From: the human T2T-CHM13v2.0 reference genome, Homo sapiens
NCBI RefSeq assembly: GCF_009914755.1
Contig: NC_060940.1
Strand: one strand, 5' to 3'
DNA length: 64,000 nucleotides
This document shows positions 3,240 through 61,519 of this stretch, piece after piece (position 1 is the first letter of the stretch; every line of letters starts with the position of its first letter). Under the pieces are notes generated by a model. The model searched no databases. It was not told where the DNA came from and saw only the letters and a list, made by a program, of their open reading frames with translations. The position numbers were made by a program, and so were the translations under genes.

Positions 3240-4034
3240 TGTGGTAGGCAATTTCAAACTACACTTTTGAGTAGCTTTCTGCCCTCCAGTGTGGGCTGGA
3301 GTTATGAAGTCACTTATAATGAATAGGACATGGCAGAAATGATAAGCCATCTCTTCTGAGATTAGGATATTTTAAAAATGTTGCTTCCTGGCTGAGCGTG
3401 GTCGCTCATGCCTGTAATCCCAGCACTTTGGGAAGCTGAGGCGGGTGGATCACGAGGTCAGGAGATCGAAACCATCCTGGCTAACACGGGGAAACCCTGT
3501 CTATACTAAAAATACAAAAATTTAGCTGGGTGTGGTGGCGGGCGCCTGTAGTCCCAGCTACTAGGGAGGCTGAGGCAGGAGAATGATGAGAATCTGGGAG
3601 GCGGAGCTCGCAGTGAGCAGAGATGGTGCGCCACTGCACTCCAGCCTGGGCTACAGTGCGAGACTCCGTCTCAAAAAAAAAAAAAAAAAAAGTTGCTTCC
3701 CTGTTGGGTATTTTCTCACATTCTTTGGATTGCTTGATCTGGGGAAGTCCTGTGGAGAGGACCATGTGAGTGAGGTTGGAAGTGGATATTCTCAGCCTTG
3801 CCAACATCACATGCATAAGCATAGATGTGAGTCCTCCGAGAGTTGAGCCTTGAGATGCTGGCAGCCCCAGACAACACTTGGACGGCTGCTTTGTAAAAGA
3901 TCCTGGGCCATACCCACCAGCCAAGCCACTCTCAGATTCCTAACCCACAGAAATTGTGTAATAGTAAATGTTTATTGTTTTAAGCTATTAATTTTGGGGG
4001 ATAATTTGTTATGCAGCAGTAGATAATGAATACA
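3240..4034 (+). mobile_element. ERVL-MaLR LTR (MLT1F-like) interrupted by AluY
   Basis: Starts 'tgtggtaggca'; ends 'ttttgggggataatttgttatgcagcagtagataatgaataca'. Confidence 0.7.
3390..3691 (+). mobile_element. AluY with target-site duplication
   Basis: Y-type 'ccatcctggctaacacg', 'cctgtagtcccagc', 'gcggagctcgcagtg'; poly(A) tail; 'gttgcttcc' on both flanks. Confidence 0.93.
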
Positions 4035-55400: not shown

Positions 55401-56743
55401 TAAGGGATGAGACAGGAGGTGTTGACGATTCTACAGCTTAACATGCAGAGTTTGCGCCAGAGTGGTGACGATGTAGGTTCTTAAAAAGAAGGAAAAGAGA
55501 CCTTACATCGATTAATTGATTTTTAGGAGCAAGCACTGTGCTCTGTGCTCACATTTATTAATTCACGTATCCAGGTTTGAAACTTAGAATTAACCACAAA
55601 GCAACAGTAAGAAAAGATGGAATAAAGCACTTTACTTTATAGGCTGTCATGGATTACACAGGTAGTAGAAATAGAAGGCCTGGAGTCCCTTCATTTGCTG
55701 GCTACATTTACTGGCCCTAAAAACCTCAGCAGATCATTTTACCTTTATGGGCATCCACTTTTGCATCTGTAAAATGTGGGTAATACTGCTTTGGAGACAA
55801 TGAGCAGGACATTTGCACACATTAGAATTTATAAAGTAATTTTTCAGGAATTATAACATTATAATTTATCCTGAATGTCTTCTGTTTCATCTTTCCCGAT
55901 TTCCCTCCTAATGGAACTGATAGTCCTATCTGCTCACTAATCTGTAGAATTGCTATAACTTATACATACCAATACCTACACTTGTTTTCTGTGTCTTTTT
56001 TTTTTTAAATACTCATTTTACTTGGCCATTGAGTTCCAAGTTAGATGAGCTTTCATTGTTCTTTGAGATACATCAAAATGTTCTCTGTGAGGCCTTCCTT
56101 ACTCCTGCCACCTAATTTCCTGCGTTTGACCATTCATTTTCCTGTGGTCACATAGCAATTTCCATGTACCTCTTAGTACTCGTATCACATTATTTTATAA
56201 TTGTCTACAAGCTCCTAGAAAAAAAGGCTTATTCATTTTTGTATCCATAGCACCTGGCATGGCTTCTGGCAGGGAAGTGGCATGCAATAAATTTTTTTAA
56301 ATGTAATAATTTTAGCTCATTGTTATTAGTACTATGTGTATTAGTGGGGCATTCCCATTTCAGTTTTGGACACATTACCATGAGGGAGAAAATCAGAAAT
56401 CAAAGAAGAAATTTCTACTAAGCTTCATATAATACATGAAAATAATCCTAGCATATCTAATATATGTAAGAAATAATGGTGCAGTTACTAATATAATACA
56501 TTATACAATGTTTCATAGCATATATACTATGTGAGACGTGTCACTTTTTCAAAATGAATGCTAGATCTTTCTGGCTCTAACGTGTTAAAAGGGTCCTGCG
56601 GTTTCTTTCTGCATTCAGTCCTTTGCCCCCTCACTTCATCCACACTTCTGACATCAGTATATACACAGTCACATCATAAATTCAAATACTTTCTGATCTA
56701 GTAGCTCCCTTTTTTTCTCATCAGCTATTCATTTTATCATTAG

Positions 56744-58032
<1,289 letters not shown>

Positions 58033-58060
<28 letters not shown>

Positions 58061-59279
58061 TGCCGTCTCTCCTTTCTCCTCCTAAGCAGCTCTCTTAGTC
58101 TCCTGAATTTTGATGTTCTACTTAGCACCCTCATGTTCTTATGCATGTTGCCCTGCTGGAGGCGTCCTTCTCTTTGGGAAGCCTGACCCACCAACAGTGC
58201 CTCAGGAGATAGACATGGAAGCTTAGCCGGTGGGGGCCCCTCGTCTCTATCCCACCTCAGTTGCAGGGGAGGGGTCGGTTGCAGCTGCAGCGGTGGCCCC
58301 GACAGTTTTCTTTTGCGGGAACTGTGGCCGGCAGCTCTGGGTAGAGAAGACCTACTTGATCCAAGAGCTGCAGGATCCTTGGGCTGCATGTCCTCCCCCA
58401 CCATCAGCAAGCCTGGAGAGCTGGGCAGGTGGTCTTTACCCAGCACCTTCAAGGCCCCCTTCTCTGGCCACAGGGAGCAGCCCGGAACTGGGCAGGGAGC
58501 ACTGTTGGAAGTGGGTCAGGCTTCCCAAAGGGAAGGATGCCTCCAGCAGGGCTGTGTGAACTGGCGACTCCATGGCCCTTGGAGTAGAAACTCACTGCAT
58601 GCACCTGGGCCTTGTCAGTCTGGTTGTTTTCTGTCAAGCTCTTGAGGTGGACATTTCCCTCCAAGGTCCTGGGATTGTACCAGGAGGAAGTGAGGTTTCC
58701 CTGAGTCTCCAGGGGCCTAGAGGTGGAGGCTGCTTCCCCATTGCTACAGGGGCCCCTTTTATTGTCCTCCTGCCCCTGGGTCTCTACCTGGTCTTTCACC
58801 TCCGTTGCTTCTTTGGGCTCTTCTGCCCTCATCTCCGTCTTCGGGAGCCTGGCTGGGATCACCTGCTCATCAAATGAAGGAAGTTGAAGGTTAAACTTGC
58901 CTCTGAGATGAGGGATCCTCAGGGGCCTGAGGTGTCCAAACATCGTGGAGTTGCGAGCAGACAGCGCAGGTTTCTTCCTCGAGGGGGGGCTCCAGACCAC
59001 AGGAGGCAGGACCCTCTGTGGGGTGCCCGTGTTCTGAGGGCTAAGACACAGCCTCATAGGGGCACCATCCCACCTGACTGGAAAAGAAGGCCCAAGATGT
59101 CGCTGACGGTTGAAGAGTGGGAAATGGCCCCAGATTCCCCGGGCAGGCACAGGTGCAGGAGCCGCGGGGTGAGCCCGGCCAGCTGGGAAGGCCTCACGGA
59201 CAAGACGAGCAGGTGGCCGATGGCATGGCCAGGACCTGCGGCGGAACCAGGAACAAAATACGCTTAGTGAGTTGCCCAT
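58033..59279 (-). pseudogene. UPF0607-family (POM121/NPAP1-related) retrogene copy with a 1-bp frameshift at ~58490-58492
   Basis: MGNSLSVFCSWFRRR...MRLCLSPQNTGTPQRVLPPVVWSPPSRKKP...LPTVLPA continues in another frame as PVPGCSLWPEKGALKVLGKDHLPSSPG...RKRKLSGPPLQL...RRGGPRL*; recognised from recalled UPF0607 proteins. Confidence 0.85.
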
Positions 59280-59386
59280 TTTGAGCGAGTTGTGCACAGA
59301 CGAAAGTAAGGGTGAGAAGCGGAGAGGATACTCCTAAGTCACCCACTTCTCTGTGGCCGGGTGCACACTGGGCATCTGGGAGTTTA

Positions 59387-59394
59387 TGACATCA
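59387..59394. promoter_or_regulatory. CRE-like motif TGACATCA ~108 bp upstream of the UPF0607 ATG
   Basis: 'tatgacatcacaatgg'; one mismatch from TGACGTCA. Confidence 0.35.
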
Positions 59395-60658
59395 CAATGG
59401 GGCTGGTGACAGAGCTAGGGTGTGGAGGAGTGCTTAGGAGCCCAGCGAGGGTGCCTACAAGAGGAGTCAAAGGGCAAAGGGTGAGACCCTTCCACCGGTT
59501 CCCCTGGACTCTAGCCTCAGGGACGTCCTGCTCCTGGGGGCAGGTGTGTGGCCCTGGATGGGCCCCCTGTGGGGCTGTTGGGGATGCGGGGCTGATCTCC
59601 CAGAGCGCTTCCGCCTGGCGCCTGGCCCAGGTGCTGGCTGGCACCCAGTGGCCCTGTCTTGGCCGGCCCTGTACCCCGGGTTGCAGGGCCAGAACCTGGA
59701 AGCAGAGCGCAGGACCAGCCAGATCCCGCCAGGCTCTCCAGTGCCTCTGTGCTGCCTGGAGCCAGGCCTGCCTTCTCCATGGCTGCCGTGGCCTCAAGGG
59801 CCACCAGCCTCGCTCCACAGGTTTCCAAGAGAGGATGCAGTGCCCTGACCTGACTGGATGCACCTCTTACCACATGCCTCCCTGGCAGGCAGGGTCTCCA
59901 CTTTTTACAAGTTTGCCTGAGACCATTCCTCAGGTCATTCAGGTGATCATGGCCCAGCCAGGCTTTGAACCTGGGCTGTGCGATTCCACAGCTGGCACTC
60001 TGGCCTGTGTGCCTCATGATCATGGATACAGCATCTATTCTTATTTTTTCCTCTAGTCCTGGGGTACTTAGCACCGTGGCATATCTGTAATAAGCACATG
60101 CACACCTCGAAGGAGGTCTTCACTTCAACATACAAGTTGACCATGGCATGCTCTGGGCTCCAGTCCTCTACAAAGATGTAGGGCAGGAACTACCAGTTGT
60201 CAGCACAGCACCATCCCACATTGCTCTTCTAATGGAGACTTTCACCCCAGATGTTCTTTCTCGTCTGATGGGAAGGATCCAAGTATGTAAAGATTATGTT
60301 CTAGATCAGCTTTGGTCTGTCCTAAAAGAAATTTGCCAGTGGATTATTCCATATGGATAAAAGTCAGTTTCTCTGGTCTTCCTGGAATGTGTCTAGAAAG
60401 CAAATACATTATTTACAATTCATAGTAGATCAATGTATTGGATTAAAATATGACAAACATAATTTGGTCATTGTGAGCATGCCAGCTCGGTCAACTATTC
60501 ACCATACATGATGCCCTAAATATAACTCTAGGTTTTCTTATGCCCAAGAGAGGGACATACTCTTGGGTGTCTGGACTAGGGAAACATGCATGAAAAACCA
60601 TTTGGCCACTCTACATCTTGTTACTGGAGAATTGAAACCATCTATATTCAAAGATATT

Positions 60659-60664
60659 ATTAAA
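60659..60664 (+). terminator. ATTAAA polyadenylation signal of the retrocopied transcript
   Basis: 12 nt upstream of the A-run at 60677. Confidence 0.8.
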
Positions 60665-61519
60665 AGGCAAGAAGTTAAAAAAAAAAAGAACATTGATCTC
60701 ATGATTCTTTCATTATATCCATTTTACATTATCCTGCCTTATACCCACAATTGAAGAGTTGCCACTTTATACCTAGGATAGAGGAGTTGCCACATCATGA
60801 GCATGCTGGCACCAAGTGGAGGCACATCCAGGTTTTTCAGCATTCTCCTGGTAAGGTTGATTAGCTCTCGGAAGCTGAGCATATGTTTAAAATCCTTAAC
60901 CAACATCACTTAGATTTCCTTATAGTTGCATCTCAGTCTATAGCTAAATGGACATGAAATCAATATGCACTCATGGAAAGCTAGCCCCCGTGAGATACAT
61001 TCTAAATAATGCAGCATATCGTAACAATTGGATGGTACATAATTCCCTCCATCTAAAACAAAATTGATTTTTGTCCTCTATTATCCCAGTACTGCAAAGG
61101 GATCTATTTTCATTTAAAGTTTCAAACTTTTCAGCCGTGCACCATAAACAAACACTAAAAGATTTCATAATATTCTCAAGATTGTCCACTCTCAGCAGCA
61201 AAGAGTGCCACTACGAATGCTGAAGGCTAAGAAGTAATAAACCATCAAAAGCTTCATTGCAAATGCTCTGAAAAATCTCTTTTCCTTCCACAGCTCAGCA
61301 GGGTGCAGCTCTGCTTACATTTTCAGGCCATGAATGAGAAAGTTGCCTTTGGCCTTATCTGACCCCTTTCTCCATGTCAGAAAGGGAGAGAACACTCACA
61401 AGATGGAATAAAAGAATTGAATGGTTTGCTTCTTGTTTCCGTCAACCCAATGTCTGCTGCCAAAAAAAAAAAAAAAAAAAAAAGGAAAAAAAACACACAT
61501 TCGAAGCAAATGCTTCTTA

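What the first reader, a model, noticed from the sequence alone, without database searches (positions are those of the whole stretch)
59280..60676. Retrocopy that brings its own upstream region: promoter co-mobilised because the cargo gene is antisense
Seen: ~1.4 kb upstream of the minus-strand UPF0607 ATG lies inside the TSD-bounded insert. It includes a GC-rich block (~59340-59900), a MIR-like remnant (~59890-60000) and a CRE-like TGACATCA at 59387-59394. Established: ordinary retrocopies lose their promoters, and CRE variants are bound by CREM-tau in post-meiotic germ cells. Inference: antisense carriage duplicates gene and promoter together, so copies could be transcribed on arrival and help explain expansion of the UPF0607 family.
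Basis: inference. Interest (0 to 1): 0.75.

Follow-up and report, generated by a model that had tools for sequence, protein, structure and literature searches.

The report
Host-gene retrocopy carrying whole antisense gene
This stretch is the native upstream flank of a small testis-type gene that was copied to chromosome 16, gene and flank together, because the whole unit rode backwards inside a retrotransposed side-transcript of the housekeeping gene SPTLC1.

Summary
The main observation holds. Window 59280-60676 is the 1,397-bp 5' flank of a minus-strand UPF0607/POM121-family ORF. It lies inside a 3.9-kb insert (56769-60687) bounded by a 10-bp target-site duplication and ending in a plus-strand poly(A).

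The carrier is identified. The insert starts with SPTLC1 exons 1-3, spliced. Exon 3 is joined by an exact GT-AG junction to an antisense-Alu exon. The RNA then runs antisense through the whole UPF0607 unit and ends at an ATTAAA site.

The unspliced source lies 2.3 kb downstream of SPTLC1 exon 3 on chr9 and has no poly(A). Nine dispersed full-length retrocopies exist (JC distance 2.8-5.0%, star tree), plus one older 5'-truncated copy. Six of nine keep ORFs of at least 407 aa. The source ORF is broken.

Promoter function is not shown:
- The GC-rich block is CpG-poor (o/e 0.24).
- The TGACATCA motif occurs at chance frequency, sits at -18 to -25, and is not kept in older paralogs.
- The MIR-like remnant is unsupported.
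- The flank evolves about neutrally.

In favour, the hub annotation puts two opposed transcript ends at 59359 and 59370, and papers report testis RNA and antisense piRNAs for a family member.

Verdict: the structure is firmly supported and the promoter claim is plausible. This is a new variant of a known kind.

The parts
56759..56768 (.). 5' target-site duplication AGAACTTTGA
   Evidence: matches 60687-60696 at 9 of 10 bases
56769..57047 (+). SPTLC1 exons 1-3, spliced (5'UTR plus codons 1 to about 86, with an in-frame TAA acquired). This is the 5' end of the retrotransposed RNA, at the SPTLC1 start region.
   Evidence: 62 of 64 residues identical to PDB 6m4n_A residues 1-64; three separate exon blocks at C9:104281800-878, 104278941-9051 and 104275231-323. 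GT donors and AG acceptors in the source.
57048..57252 (+). Antisense-Alu exon. The splice acceptor in the source is ...ttttgag|ACGGAGTC, and the window reads ...TTTCAGG|ACGGAGTC.
   Evidence: Rfam Metazoa_SRP sub-threshold hit on the minus strand, so the Alu is sense on minus.
57253..57977 (-). SVA2-type insert in the UPF0607 3'UTR: A-run 57253-57260, 99-bp 3' unique piece with ATTAAA at 57261-57359, and a 40-bp VNTR at 57360-57977.
   Evidence: period 40, 15.1 copies, scored over 57360-57963. (155 candidate loci; 40 of 40 scored are at least 95% identical). (VNTR span 625-1228 bp among copies).
57978..58060 (-). 5' part of the same Alu. It supplies the last 9 codons and the TAA stop of the 416-aa ORF.
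58029..59279 (-). UPF0607 (POM121-family) coding region. In this copy it is broken by a 1-bp deletion near 58489 (plus a 3-bp deletion near 59117), leaving a 276-aa ORF at 58449-59279.
   Evidence: Pfam PF15229 POM121, E 6.4e-15 (window copy) and 2e-21 (C13 copy).
59280..59370 (-). 5'UTR up to the annotated 5' end of the NPAP1L pseudogene (59370)
   Evidence: hub annotation; sequence
59359..59480 (+). Exon 1 of predicted lncRNA LOC101927605. It starts 11 bp inside the pseudogene's 5' end, giving a head-to-head arrangement. The GT donor is kept in 11 of 11 young copies.
   Evidence: hub annotation
59387..59394 (.). TGACATCA, 7 of 8 match to the CRE palindrome. It lies 18-25 bp upstream of the annotated minus-strand 5' end.
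59400..59900 (.). GC-rich (65-71%) but CpG-poor block (o/e 0.24)
60057..60282 (+). Exon 2 of LOC101927605. The AG acceptor and GT donor are kept in 11 of 11 young copies.
   Evidence: hub annotation
60593..60676 (+). Tail derived from another dispersed repeat. It carries the plus-strand poly(A) signal ATTAAA at 60659-60664.
   Evidence: 9 extra loci at 76-81% for this stretch only..
60677..60687 (+). Poly(A) tail of the retrocopy. It is absent from the source locus.
60687..60696 (.). 3' target-site duplication AGAACATTGA

Best explanation
Window 56769-60687 is an L1-type retrocopy of an alternative SPTLC1 transcript.

Shown:
- Transcription began at the SPTLC1 start region on chr9.
- Exons 1, 2 and 3 were spliced together, and exon 3 was spliced to a cryptic acceptor in an antisense Alu 2.3 kb further down.
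- The RNA then ran unspliced through about 3.6 kb and was polyadenylated after an ATTAAA.
- That 3.6 kb holds, in antisense, a complete intronless UPF0607 unit: about 1.3 kb of ancestral 5' flank, 5'UTR, a 416-codon ORF, and a 3'UTR made of Alu plus an SVA2-type VNTR element with its own poly(A) signal.
- Reverse transcription and insertion of this RNA placed gene and flank together at 9 or more new sites, one of them here.

Inferred: the later SPTLC1 exons lie further downstream, so the 3.6 kb is intronic.

The finding region 59280-60676 is therefore the passenger gene's native upstream DNA. It survived because, on the carrier RNA, it is internal 3'-terminal-exon sequence rather than untranscribed promoter.

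Inferred, not shown: the flank keeps a CpG-poor, probably testis-type and probably bidirectional promoter around 59360-59370, so copies could be transcribed at their new sites. The CRE-like motif is probably incidental.

The burst itself was driven by the carrier, through its SPTLC1 promoter and the intronic poly(A) site. Daughters begin at the SPTLC1 start and so lack that promoter, which fits the star-like tree.
For: Dispersal:
- The 1,397-bp flank is full-length at 10 other loci at 95-96% identity.
- The CDS search finds the same 11 loci at 95% or more and no young copy without the flank.

Carrier identity:
- 62 of 64 residues match Serine palmitoyltransferase 1.
- The exon part has 13 genome matches: the window itself, 8 other retrocopies with contiguous exons, 3 separate exons at C9:104.28M, and 1 exon-3 copy at C9:94.58M.

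Splicing: the source has ...TTTCAGG|gtaaat and ttttgag|ACGGAGTC, and the window has ...TTTCAGG|ACGGAGTC.

Retrotransposition marks:
- Nine copies carry A-rich tails where the source reads on without one.
- By eye, a duplicated 7-17 bp flank (at least a 7-bp candidate in C2) is visible in 8 of the 9: window, C9:28.16M, C10, C8:27.29M, C1, C13, C6:64.37M and C2.
- C6:23.72M shows only an imperfect one.
- 5' ends fall within about 30 bp of each other around the SPTLC1 start.

Older event: C8:36.60M (82-88% identity) is 5'-truncated in the VNTR, uses the same poly(A) site and has TSD AAGAAAGAGTG.

Phylogeny: JC distances are 2.8-5.0%, and the tree is star-like with terminal branches of 1.2-2.6%.

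Ancestral flank: 59621-60588 aligns collinearly upstream of NPAP1 on C15 at 70-77% and upstream of two chr9 paralogs.

Passenger integrity:
- ORFs of 416 aa survive in C13, C1, C10, C8:27.29M and C2, and 407 aa in C9:28.16M.
- The source has 130 aa and the segmental-duplicate copy 58 aa.
- Six of nine intact against a neutral expectation of about 0.20-0.24 per copy gives P of 0.003-0.008.

Promoter hints:
- The hub annotation places the pseudogene 5' end at 59370 (-) and a lncRNA start at 59359 (+). The lncRNA continues 187 kb into unique chr16 DNA.
- Its splice sites are kept in 11 of 11 young copies.
- NPAP1P6, a family member on chr9, is reported as mainly testis-expressed (PMC4423968, passages). 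It also has sperm and testis piRNAs from the strand antisense to the pseudogene (PMC4436662, passages).
Against: No expression or promoter assay was available, and the annotation used is the hub's table. The lncRNA is a predicted model.

Sequence evidence against a constrained promoter:
- The flank shows no constraint. Mean pairwise difference among the 9 retrocopies is 3.07% for 59280-60676 (2.11% outside CpG), against 4.44% (2.96%) for the CDS. The core 59371-59480 is at 2.40%.
- CpG o/e of 0.24 in the GC block means long-term germline methylation, so this is not a CpG-island promoter.
- TGACATCA is at chance frequency. In older paralogs it reads TAACATCA in C9:100.01M, loses its first base and 5' flank to an 8-bp deletion in C8:36.60M, is absent in C9:99.98M, and reads TGACATCC in C9:92.52M.

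Coding evidence:
- dN/dS among five long ORFs is 0.74-1.72, so there is no purifying selection on the protein.
- ORF retention is only moderately beyond neutral and rests on rough rates.

Gaps:
- Whether the later SPTLC1 exons lie downstream of the source unit was not tested here. A Pfam PF00155 genome search returned only other loci.
- The window copy itself has a broken ORF (276 aa).
Confidence: 0.8

Rival explanations
1. The flank is inert passenger DNA. The copies were dead on arrival, and the open reading frames and annotated transcript ends reflect chance, cross-mapping of reads among 95-96% identical copies, or transcription driven from outside the insert.
For: - The flank is no more conserved than the rest of the unit.
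- dN/dS is 0.74-1.72.
- The GC block is CpG-poor.
- The CRE-like motif is at chance frequency.
- Three of nine retrocopies, the source and the segmental duplicate have broken ORFs.
- The lncRNA is only a predicted model (hub table).
Against: - Two opposed annotated ends lie within 11 bp of each other, at 59359 and 59370, inside the insert.
- The lncRNA model splices from insert exons into unique chr16 sequence, which cross-mapping would not produce (hub table).
- Six of nine ORFs of at least 407 aa compare with about 2 expected.
- Testis RNA and antisense piRNAs are reported for NPAP1P6 (PMC4423968 and PMC4436662, passages).
Confidence: 0.3
2. The copies arose by DNA-level (segmental) duplication, not through RNA.
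For: Two family members are DNA-level duplicates. C9:94.58M keeps exon 3 unspliced 2.3 kb upstream and shares the source's 3' flank, as does C9:100.01M. NPAP1 and C9:92.52M share flank beyond the unit.
Against: For the 9 dispersed copies, SPTLC1 introns 1 and 2 and the first 2.3 kb after exon 3 are removed precisely. A-rich tails stand where the source has none. Flank duplications of 7-17 bp are visible in 8 of 9. Both ends are sharp and common to all copies.
Confidence: 0.02
3. The burst reflects special retrotransposition competence of the carrier RNA. It contains antisense Alu plus a VNTR-element sequence, features shared with SVA-type composites. On this reading the unit behaves as a short-lived composite retrotransposon and the gene and its flank are irrelevant cargo.
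For: - There are 9 full-length copies of the alternative isoform. Exons 1-3 were found nowhere else outside the gene and its duplicate, so there is no full-length retrocopy of the canonical mRNA.
- The 5' exons are spliced into an antisense Alu, as reported for MAST2 in SVA_F1 (PMC3287187, passage).
- The VNTR is said there to be important for SVA mobilisation (PMC3287187, passage).
Against: - The VNTR element's own A-run and its ATTAAA, read on the minus strand, show its sense strand is minus. On the carrier RNA it is therefore antisense.
- There is no CT-hexamer 5' end.
- Daughters lack a promoter for the carrier strand, and the tree is star-like.
- Only about 10 copies exist.
- One copy without the VNTR does not tell either way.
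Confidence: 0.15
4. The flank is a CREM-tau-dependent post-meiotic promoter acting through the TGACATCA site.
For: The motif is present in 11 of 11 young copies. NPAP1 is cited as a testis-specific gene (Farber 2000, seen only as a reference in PMC4436662 and PMC4423968).
Against: - The match is 7 of 8, at chance density.
- Conservation among copies that are 95-96% identical carries no information.
- The motif is not kept in the four older paralogs.
- It lies at -18 to -25 from the annotated 5' end. From recall, characterised CREM sites sit further upstream.
Confidence: 0.1

Closest known systems
Retrocopies that inherit a parental promoter through an upstream start site (Okamura and Nakai 2008, PMC2386082, abstract; Carelli et al. 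2016, PMC4772013, passages: about 3% of expressed retrocopies)
   Same: Promoter DNA is transcribed as part of a longer RNA, reverse-transcribed and inserted, so the copy arrives with regulatory sequence.
   Different: In those cases the promoter lies in sense, inside the same gene's own longer transcript. Here the whole gene with about 1.3 kb of native flank lies antisense inside another gene's transcript. The words 'antisense' and 'nested' have 0 occurrences in PMC4772013.
SVA_F1 / MAST2 and other VNTR composite retrotransposons (Raiz et al. 2011, PMC3287187; Lupan et al. 2015, PMC4432496; passages)
   Same: Host-gene 5' exon(s) are joined by splicing to an antisense Alu, followed by VNTR-element sequence and a 3' poly(A). 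Mobilisation is by L1 in trans, with TSDs.
   Different: The VNTR element is antisense on the carrier. There is no hexamer or SINE-R. Only about 10 copies come from one master. The cargo is a complete protein-coding unit.
Gene duplication by L1 or SVA 3' transduction
   Same: Read-through RNA carries a whole neighbouring gene to new loci.
   Different: Here no retrotransposon heads the RNA. A housekeeping gene's promoter and an intronic poly(A) site do the work, and the cargo is antisense, so it escapes splicing and 5' loss.
NPAP1 / NPAP1L / UPF0607 'POM121-related retrogenes' (Neumann et al. 2014, PMC3942032)
   Same: The gene family is the same: intronless, primate-restricted, with a POM121 domain.
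   Different: That paper gives 'duplicated or retrotransposed' for the UPF0607 copies without a mechanism, and it has 0 occurrences of SVA. SPTLC1 was not among the terms searched in it. A later review calls NPAP1P6 a retrocopy with NPAP1 as parent (PMC5408686, passage). The data here indicate that the 9 young dispersed copies are not retrocopies of an NPAP1 or UPF0607 mRNA at all. Which locus NPAP1P6 is could not be determined here.

Membership tests
L1-mediated processed retrocopy | Target-site duplications flanking the insert | tested here: met
   Window: AGAACTTTGA / AGAACATTGA. Duplications of 7-17 bp (C2 only a 7-bp candidate) are read in 8 of 9 young copies, and the older C8:36.60M has an 11-bp one. 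C6:23.72M is imperfect.
L1-mediated processed retrocopy | 3' poly(A) tail not encoded at the source, downstream of a poly(A) signal | tested here: met
   ATTAAA at 60659-60664 and an A-run at 60677-60687. The source and two DNA-level duplicates read on without an A-run.
L1-mediated processed retrocopy | Introns of the template removed | tested here: met
   SPTLC1 exons lie 2.7-3.6 kb apart at C9:104.28M and are contiguous in 9 copies. The GT-AG junction into the Alu exon is exact.
Retrocopy with inherited promoter | Parental sequence lies upstream of the copy's transcription start | tested here: inconclusive
   1.3 kb of source-derived DNA lies upstream of the annotated 5' end at 59370 (hub table). 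The start itself was not measured here.
UPF0607 / NPAP1 / POM121 family | POM121-family domain in an intronless ORF | tested here: met
   PF15229, E 6.4e-15 (window, 276 aa) and 2e-21 (C13 copy, 416 aa), both above the 27-bit cut-off.
CRE / CREM-dependent promoter | CRE (8-bp palindrome or conserved half-site) suitably placed upstream of the start, beyond chance | tested here: not met
   The match is 7 of 8 at chance density. It lies at -18 to -25 and is not conserved in 4 older paralogs.
CRE / CREM-dependent promoter | CREM binding and post-meiotic expression | not testable with these tools
   No ChIP or expression data were available.
CpG-island promoter | CpG observed/expected of about 0.6 or more in a GC-rich stretch | tested here: not met
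   o/e is 0.24 in the window and 0.18-0.31 in the 11 other copies.
SVA-type VNTR composite retrotransposon | CT-hexamer, then Alu-like region, then VNTR, all in sense on the mobilised RNA, with a family-specific 3' end and many copies | tested here: not met
   There is no hexamer. The VNTR element's A-run shows it is antisense on the carrier. About 10 copies exist.
MIR SINE remnant (59890-60000) | Similarity to MIR copies or consensus | tested here: inconclusive
   There are no matches outside the family and none within the window above control level. No repeat library was available.

The most novel reading that the evidence does not exclude
A side-isoform of a housekeeping gene (SPTLC1 exons 1-3, an Alu exon and an intronic poly(A) site) acted as a vehicle. 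It seeded at least nine new, self-contained testis transcription units across the genome, each landing with a working bidirectional promoter at about 59360-59370.

That promoter would now drive, inward, UPF0607 mRNAs. These are the only intact members of the family, since the parent is dead. Outward, it would drive long non-coding or piRNA-precursor transcripts that read into whatever DNA lies beside the insert. LOC101927605, reaching 187 kb into chr16, and the chr9 NPAP1P6 piRNA cluster would be examples.

Antisense hitch-hiking of nested genes would then be a general way to duplicate a gene together with its regulation through RNA.
Probability: 0.3. Interest if true: 0.75.

Novelty: new variant of a known kind. 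Interest (0 to 1): 0.58.

Why it matters
Retrocopies are used as the textbook case of genes born without promoters. Here a whole gene family expanded through RNA while keeping its native upstream DNA, because the gene sat backwards inside another gene's transcript.

This result does three things:
- It links annotation entries that exist as separate gene symbols (SPTLC1P and NPAP1P are both in use). The window carries both parts in a single insertion.
- It shows the young NPAP1-like pseudogenes are not retrocopies of NPAP1.
- It gives a set of nine dated, near-identical insertions at different sites. These form a natural experiment on whether a carried promoter works independently of context, and on how new testis lncRNA or piRNA loci arise.

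Four library searches found no paper that describes this composite origin.

Tried and rejected
- MIR-like remnant: a genome search and a within-window sensitive blastn with seven control segments gave no support. No repeat library was available.
- Rfam scan of 56700-60800: only sub-threshold SRP and miRNA-family hits on the Alu pieces, useful only for Alu orientation.
- Finding the later SPTLC1 exons with Pfam PF00155 over the genome: only 9 of 54 candidates were scored, all at other loci. 'Intronic' therefore rests on the 473-residue chain length against about 86 residues in exons 1-3.
- NPAP1 itself made by the same retro route: rejected. NPAP1 and C9:92.52M share sequence beyond the point where the UPF0607 lineage has a repeat, and there is no A-run there.
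- CpG-island promoter: rejected.
- Selection on the flank: none detectable.
- Which chr9 locus is NPAP1P6: not given in the text of PMC4436662.
- Literature: 'LOC101927605' appears in 1 unrelated paper. A search for AMAC1 found no paper holding that word among the 8 listed.
- In one search the C2 copy was mis-scored as lacking a start codon because of my search string. This was corrected: ATG is present and the ORF is 416 aa.
Full report
WHAT IS THERE

The finding region 59280-60676 lies directly upstream of a minus-strand ORF at 58449-59279 (276 aa). That ORF carries a POM121-family domain (PF15229, E 6.4e-15), so it belongs to the UPF0607/NPAP1 group described by Neumann et al. 2014 (PMC3942032; first part of the text, passages and Table S2 passages read).

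On the plus strand the region ends with ATTAAA (60659-60664), GAAGTT and an A-run (60677-60687). After the A-run comes AGAACATTGA (60687-60696). The same ten bases, with one difference, stand at 56759-56768.

HOW OFTEN, AND WHERE ELSE

A search of the window's own assembly with the 1,397 bp gave these results:
- full-length matches at 10 other loci at 95-96% identity (C13, C2, C9 three times, C10, C1, C6 twice, C8);
- 2 full-length matches at 87-88%;
- partial matches at 70-81% on C9 and at the NPAP1 locus on C15.

A search with the coding part found the same 11 loci at 95% or more. It found no young copy that lacks the flank. I fetched 15 loci. By blastn, the shared unit does not stop at the gene. 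It runs from 56771-56777 to 60678-60696 in 9 copies.

THE CARRIER

The first 280 bp of the unit translate to residues 1-64 of serine palmitoyltransferase 1, with 62 of 64 identical (PDB 6m4n_A).

In the genome this part has 13 matches:
- the window itself;
- 8 other copies where it is contiguous;
- three separate blocks at C9:104281800-878, 104278941-9051 and 104275231-323 on the minus strand, which are SPTLC1 exons 1-3;
- one extra exon-3 copy at C9:94.58M.

The copy at C9:104269282-104272957 lacks the exon part. It begins 2.3 kb downstream of exon 3 on the same strand.

At that source, exon 3 ends ...TTTCAGG followed by gtaaat. The Alu there is preceded by a T-run and gag, then ACGGAGTC. The window reads ...TTTCAGG|ACGGAGTC. 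This is an exact GT-AG splice into an antisense Alu.

After GAAGTT the source reads on into ordinary sequence, whereas the nine dispersed copies have A-rich tails. By eye, duplicated flanks of 7-17 bp are visible in 8 of the 9; in C2 the best is a 7-bp candidate. C6:23.72M has only an imperfect one. The 5' ends fall within about 30 bp of each other around the SPTLC1 start.

C9:94.58M keeps exon 3 unspliced and shares the source's 3' flank, as does C9:100.01M. Both are therefore DNA-level duplicates.

C8:36.60M (82-88% identity) uses the same poly(A) site, is 5'-truncated in the VNTR and has an 11-bp duplication. It is an older event of the same kind.

THE PASSENGER

Read on the minus strand, the unit holds the following, in order:
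- about 1.3 kb of flank;
- a 91-nt leader, taking the hub's 5' end at 59370;
- a 416-codon ORF;
- a 3'UTR built from an Alu that was split by an SVA2-type element.

The SVA2-type element consists of:
- a 40-bp VNTR;
- a 99-bp unique piece that is itself dispersed, with 155 candidate loci and 40 of 40 scored at 95% or more;
- an A-run, with duplicated Alu target on either side.

The description of SVA2 as a VNTR plus a short unique 3' sequence, with 39-40-bp units, comes from passages of PMC4432496 and PMC3287187. I could not compare with a consensus.

The last nine codons and the stop codon of the ORF come from the Alu.

The flank is ancestral to the family. Window 59621-60588 aligns collinearly upstream of NPAP1 (70-77%) and upstream of two chr9 paralogs. 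NPAP1 and C9:92.52M share further flank with each other, so they arose by DNA duplication rather than by this route.

AGE AND FATE

Among the 11 young copies, pairwise JC distances over 2.7 kb are 2.8-5.0%. The tree is star-like, with terminal branches of 1.2-2.6%. This fits one master locus and a burst. With a recalled rate of about 1e-9 per site per year, that is roughly 12-26 million years ago.

ORF lengths:

| Copy | ORF (aa) |
|---|---|
| C13, C1, C10, C8:27.29M, C2 | 416 |
| C9:28.16M | 407 |
| Window (C16) | 276 |
| C6:64.37M | 222 |
| C6:23.72M | 109 |
| Source (C9:104.27M) | 130 |
| Segmental duplicate (C9:94.58M) | 58 |

I estimated the neutral chance of a copy staying intact from two figures. 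The flank's own indel rate is 11 events in 11 copies. A weighted 3.1% of substitutions create stops. This gives a chance of 0.20-0.24 per copy. Six or more of nine intact then has P of 0.003-0.008.

Against protein-level constraint, dN/dS among five long ORFs is 0.74-1.72 (the C2 copy was left out of that run). The CDS also differs more between copies than the flank does (4.44% against 3.07%).

THE PROMOTER QUESTION

This part is inference. In favour:
- The hub's annotation gives the pseudogene a 5' end at 59370 (-).
- It gives a predicted lncRNA, LOC101927605, a start at 59359 (+), with exons at 59359-59480 and 60057-60282. The model continues 187 kb into unique chr16 DNA.
- That head-to-head pair sits 1.3 kb inside the insert.
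- The lncRNA's three splice sites are intact in 11 of 11 young copies.
- NPAP1P6 on chr9 is called mainly or exclusively testis-expressed (PMC4423968, passage).
- Sperm and testis piRNAs come from the strand antisense to NPAP1P6 (PMC4436662, passages). That is the strand of the lncRNA here. I could not tell which chr9 copy NPAP1P6 is.

Against:
- The GC-rich block (65-71% GC) has CpG o/e of 0.24.
- The flank shows no extra conservation.
- TGACATCA occurs 5 times in the window against 3.34 expected, with 28 of 100 shuffles reaching 5.
- One-mismatch CREs number 20 per 64 kb, so about 0.3-0.44 are expected in this region.
- The motif lies only 18-25 bp from the annotated 5' end and is not kept in the four older paralogs.
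- The MIR-like remnant found no support.

WHAT DROVE THE EXPANSION

The copies begin at the SPTLC1 start, so they do not carry the carrier's promoter. That agrees with the star tree. The passenger's promoter, if it is active, explains possible expression of the copies but not their number.

Exons 1-3 occur nowhere else in the assembly. No full-length retrocopy of the canonical SPTLC1 mRNA exists beside nine of this isoform. This leaves room for a special competence of the carrier RNA, given its Alu and VNTR content. However, the VNTR element is antisense on the carrier, so it is not an SVA-like element in the strict sense.

COMPARISON AND NOVELTY

Promoter inheritance by retrocopies is known for sense transcripts from upstream starts:
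- Okamura and Nakai 2008 (PMC2386082, abstract);
- Carelli et al. 2016 (PMC4772013, passages), who put it at about 3% of expressed retrocopies. That text has 0 occurrences of 'antisense' or 'nested'.

Splicing of host exons into an antisense Alu is known from SVA_F1 (PMC3287187, passage). Whole-gene transduction by SVA is recalled, not seen here.

Searches for UPF0607 (3 papers), SPTLC1 with retrocopy terms, nested-gene and retrocopy terms, and SPTLC1P or NPAP1P (20 papers; the two opened were a gene list and a review) found no description of the composite origin. SPTLC1P and NPAP1P symbols are listed as separate entries. A review treats NPAP1P6 as a retrocopy of NPAP1 (PMC5408686, passage).

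I rate this a new variant of a known kind. It is structurally secure and functionally open.

Noticed in passing
window 57253-57977 (minus strand), with 57048-57252 and 57978-58060: An SVA2-type element sits inside a minus-strand Alu, with about 13 bp of duplicated Alu target (57240-57252 against 57981-57993). The element has a 40-bp VNTR, a 99-bp unique 3' piece with ATTAAA, and an A-run. It provides the UPF0607 3'UTR and poly(A) signal. The 99-bp piece alone has 155 candidate loci in the assembly. The VNTR span ranges from 625 to 1228 bp among the family copies and is missing in C8:27.29M.
   Followed up: partly
window 58030-58059 (minus strand): The last nine codons and the TAA stop of the 416-aa UPF0607 ORF are Alu-derived.
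   Followed up: partly
window 60593-60676: The last 84 bp before the poly(A) match 9 unrelated loci at 76-81%. They are missing from NPAP1 and two old chr9 paralogs. This is a dispersed repeat of unknown family that donates the carrier's ATTAAA.
   Followed up: partly
L041 (C9:100.01M) 3638-3925: The older DNA-level paralog has about five tandem copies, roughly 63 bp apart, of the stretch around the start codon.
   Followed up: no
G000 C10:88260511-88260803, C10:51544211-51544503, C10:80729938-80730230: Three 293-bp fragments of the UPF0607 coding region at 87-88% identity lie on chromosome 10, each with a further short piece next to it. Their origin was not examined.
   Followed up: no
window 59397-60056 (+) and 59517-60023 (-): Long ORFs of 219 and 168 aa lie on both strands of the GC-rich block. 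They are most likely by-products of base composition and were not tested.
   Followed up: no
window 56955-57047: The SPTLC1-derived part of this copy has acquired an in-frame TAA (W-stop-PEP, where the source reads WQPEP). The carrier's short reading frame is therefore also dead here.
   Followed up: no
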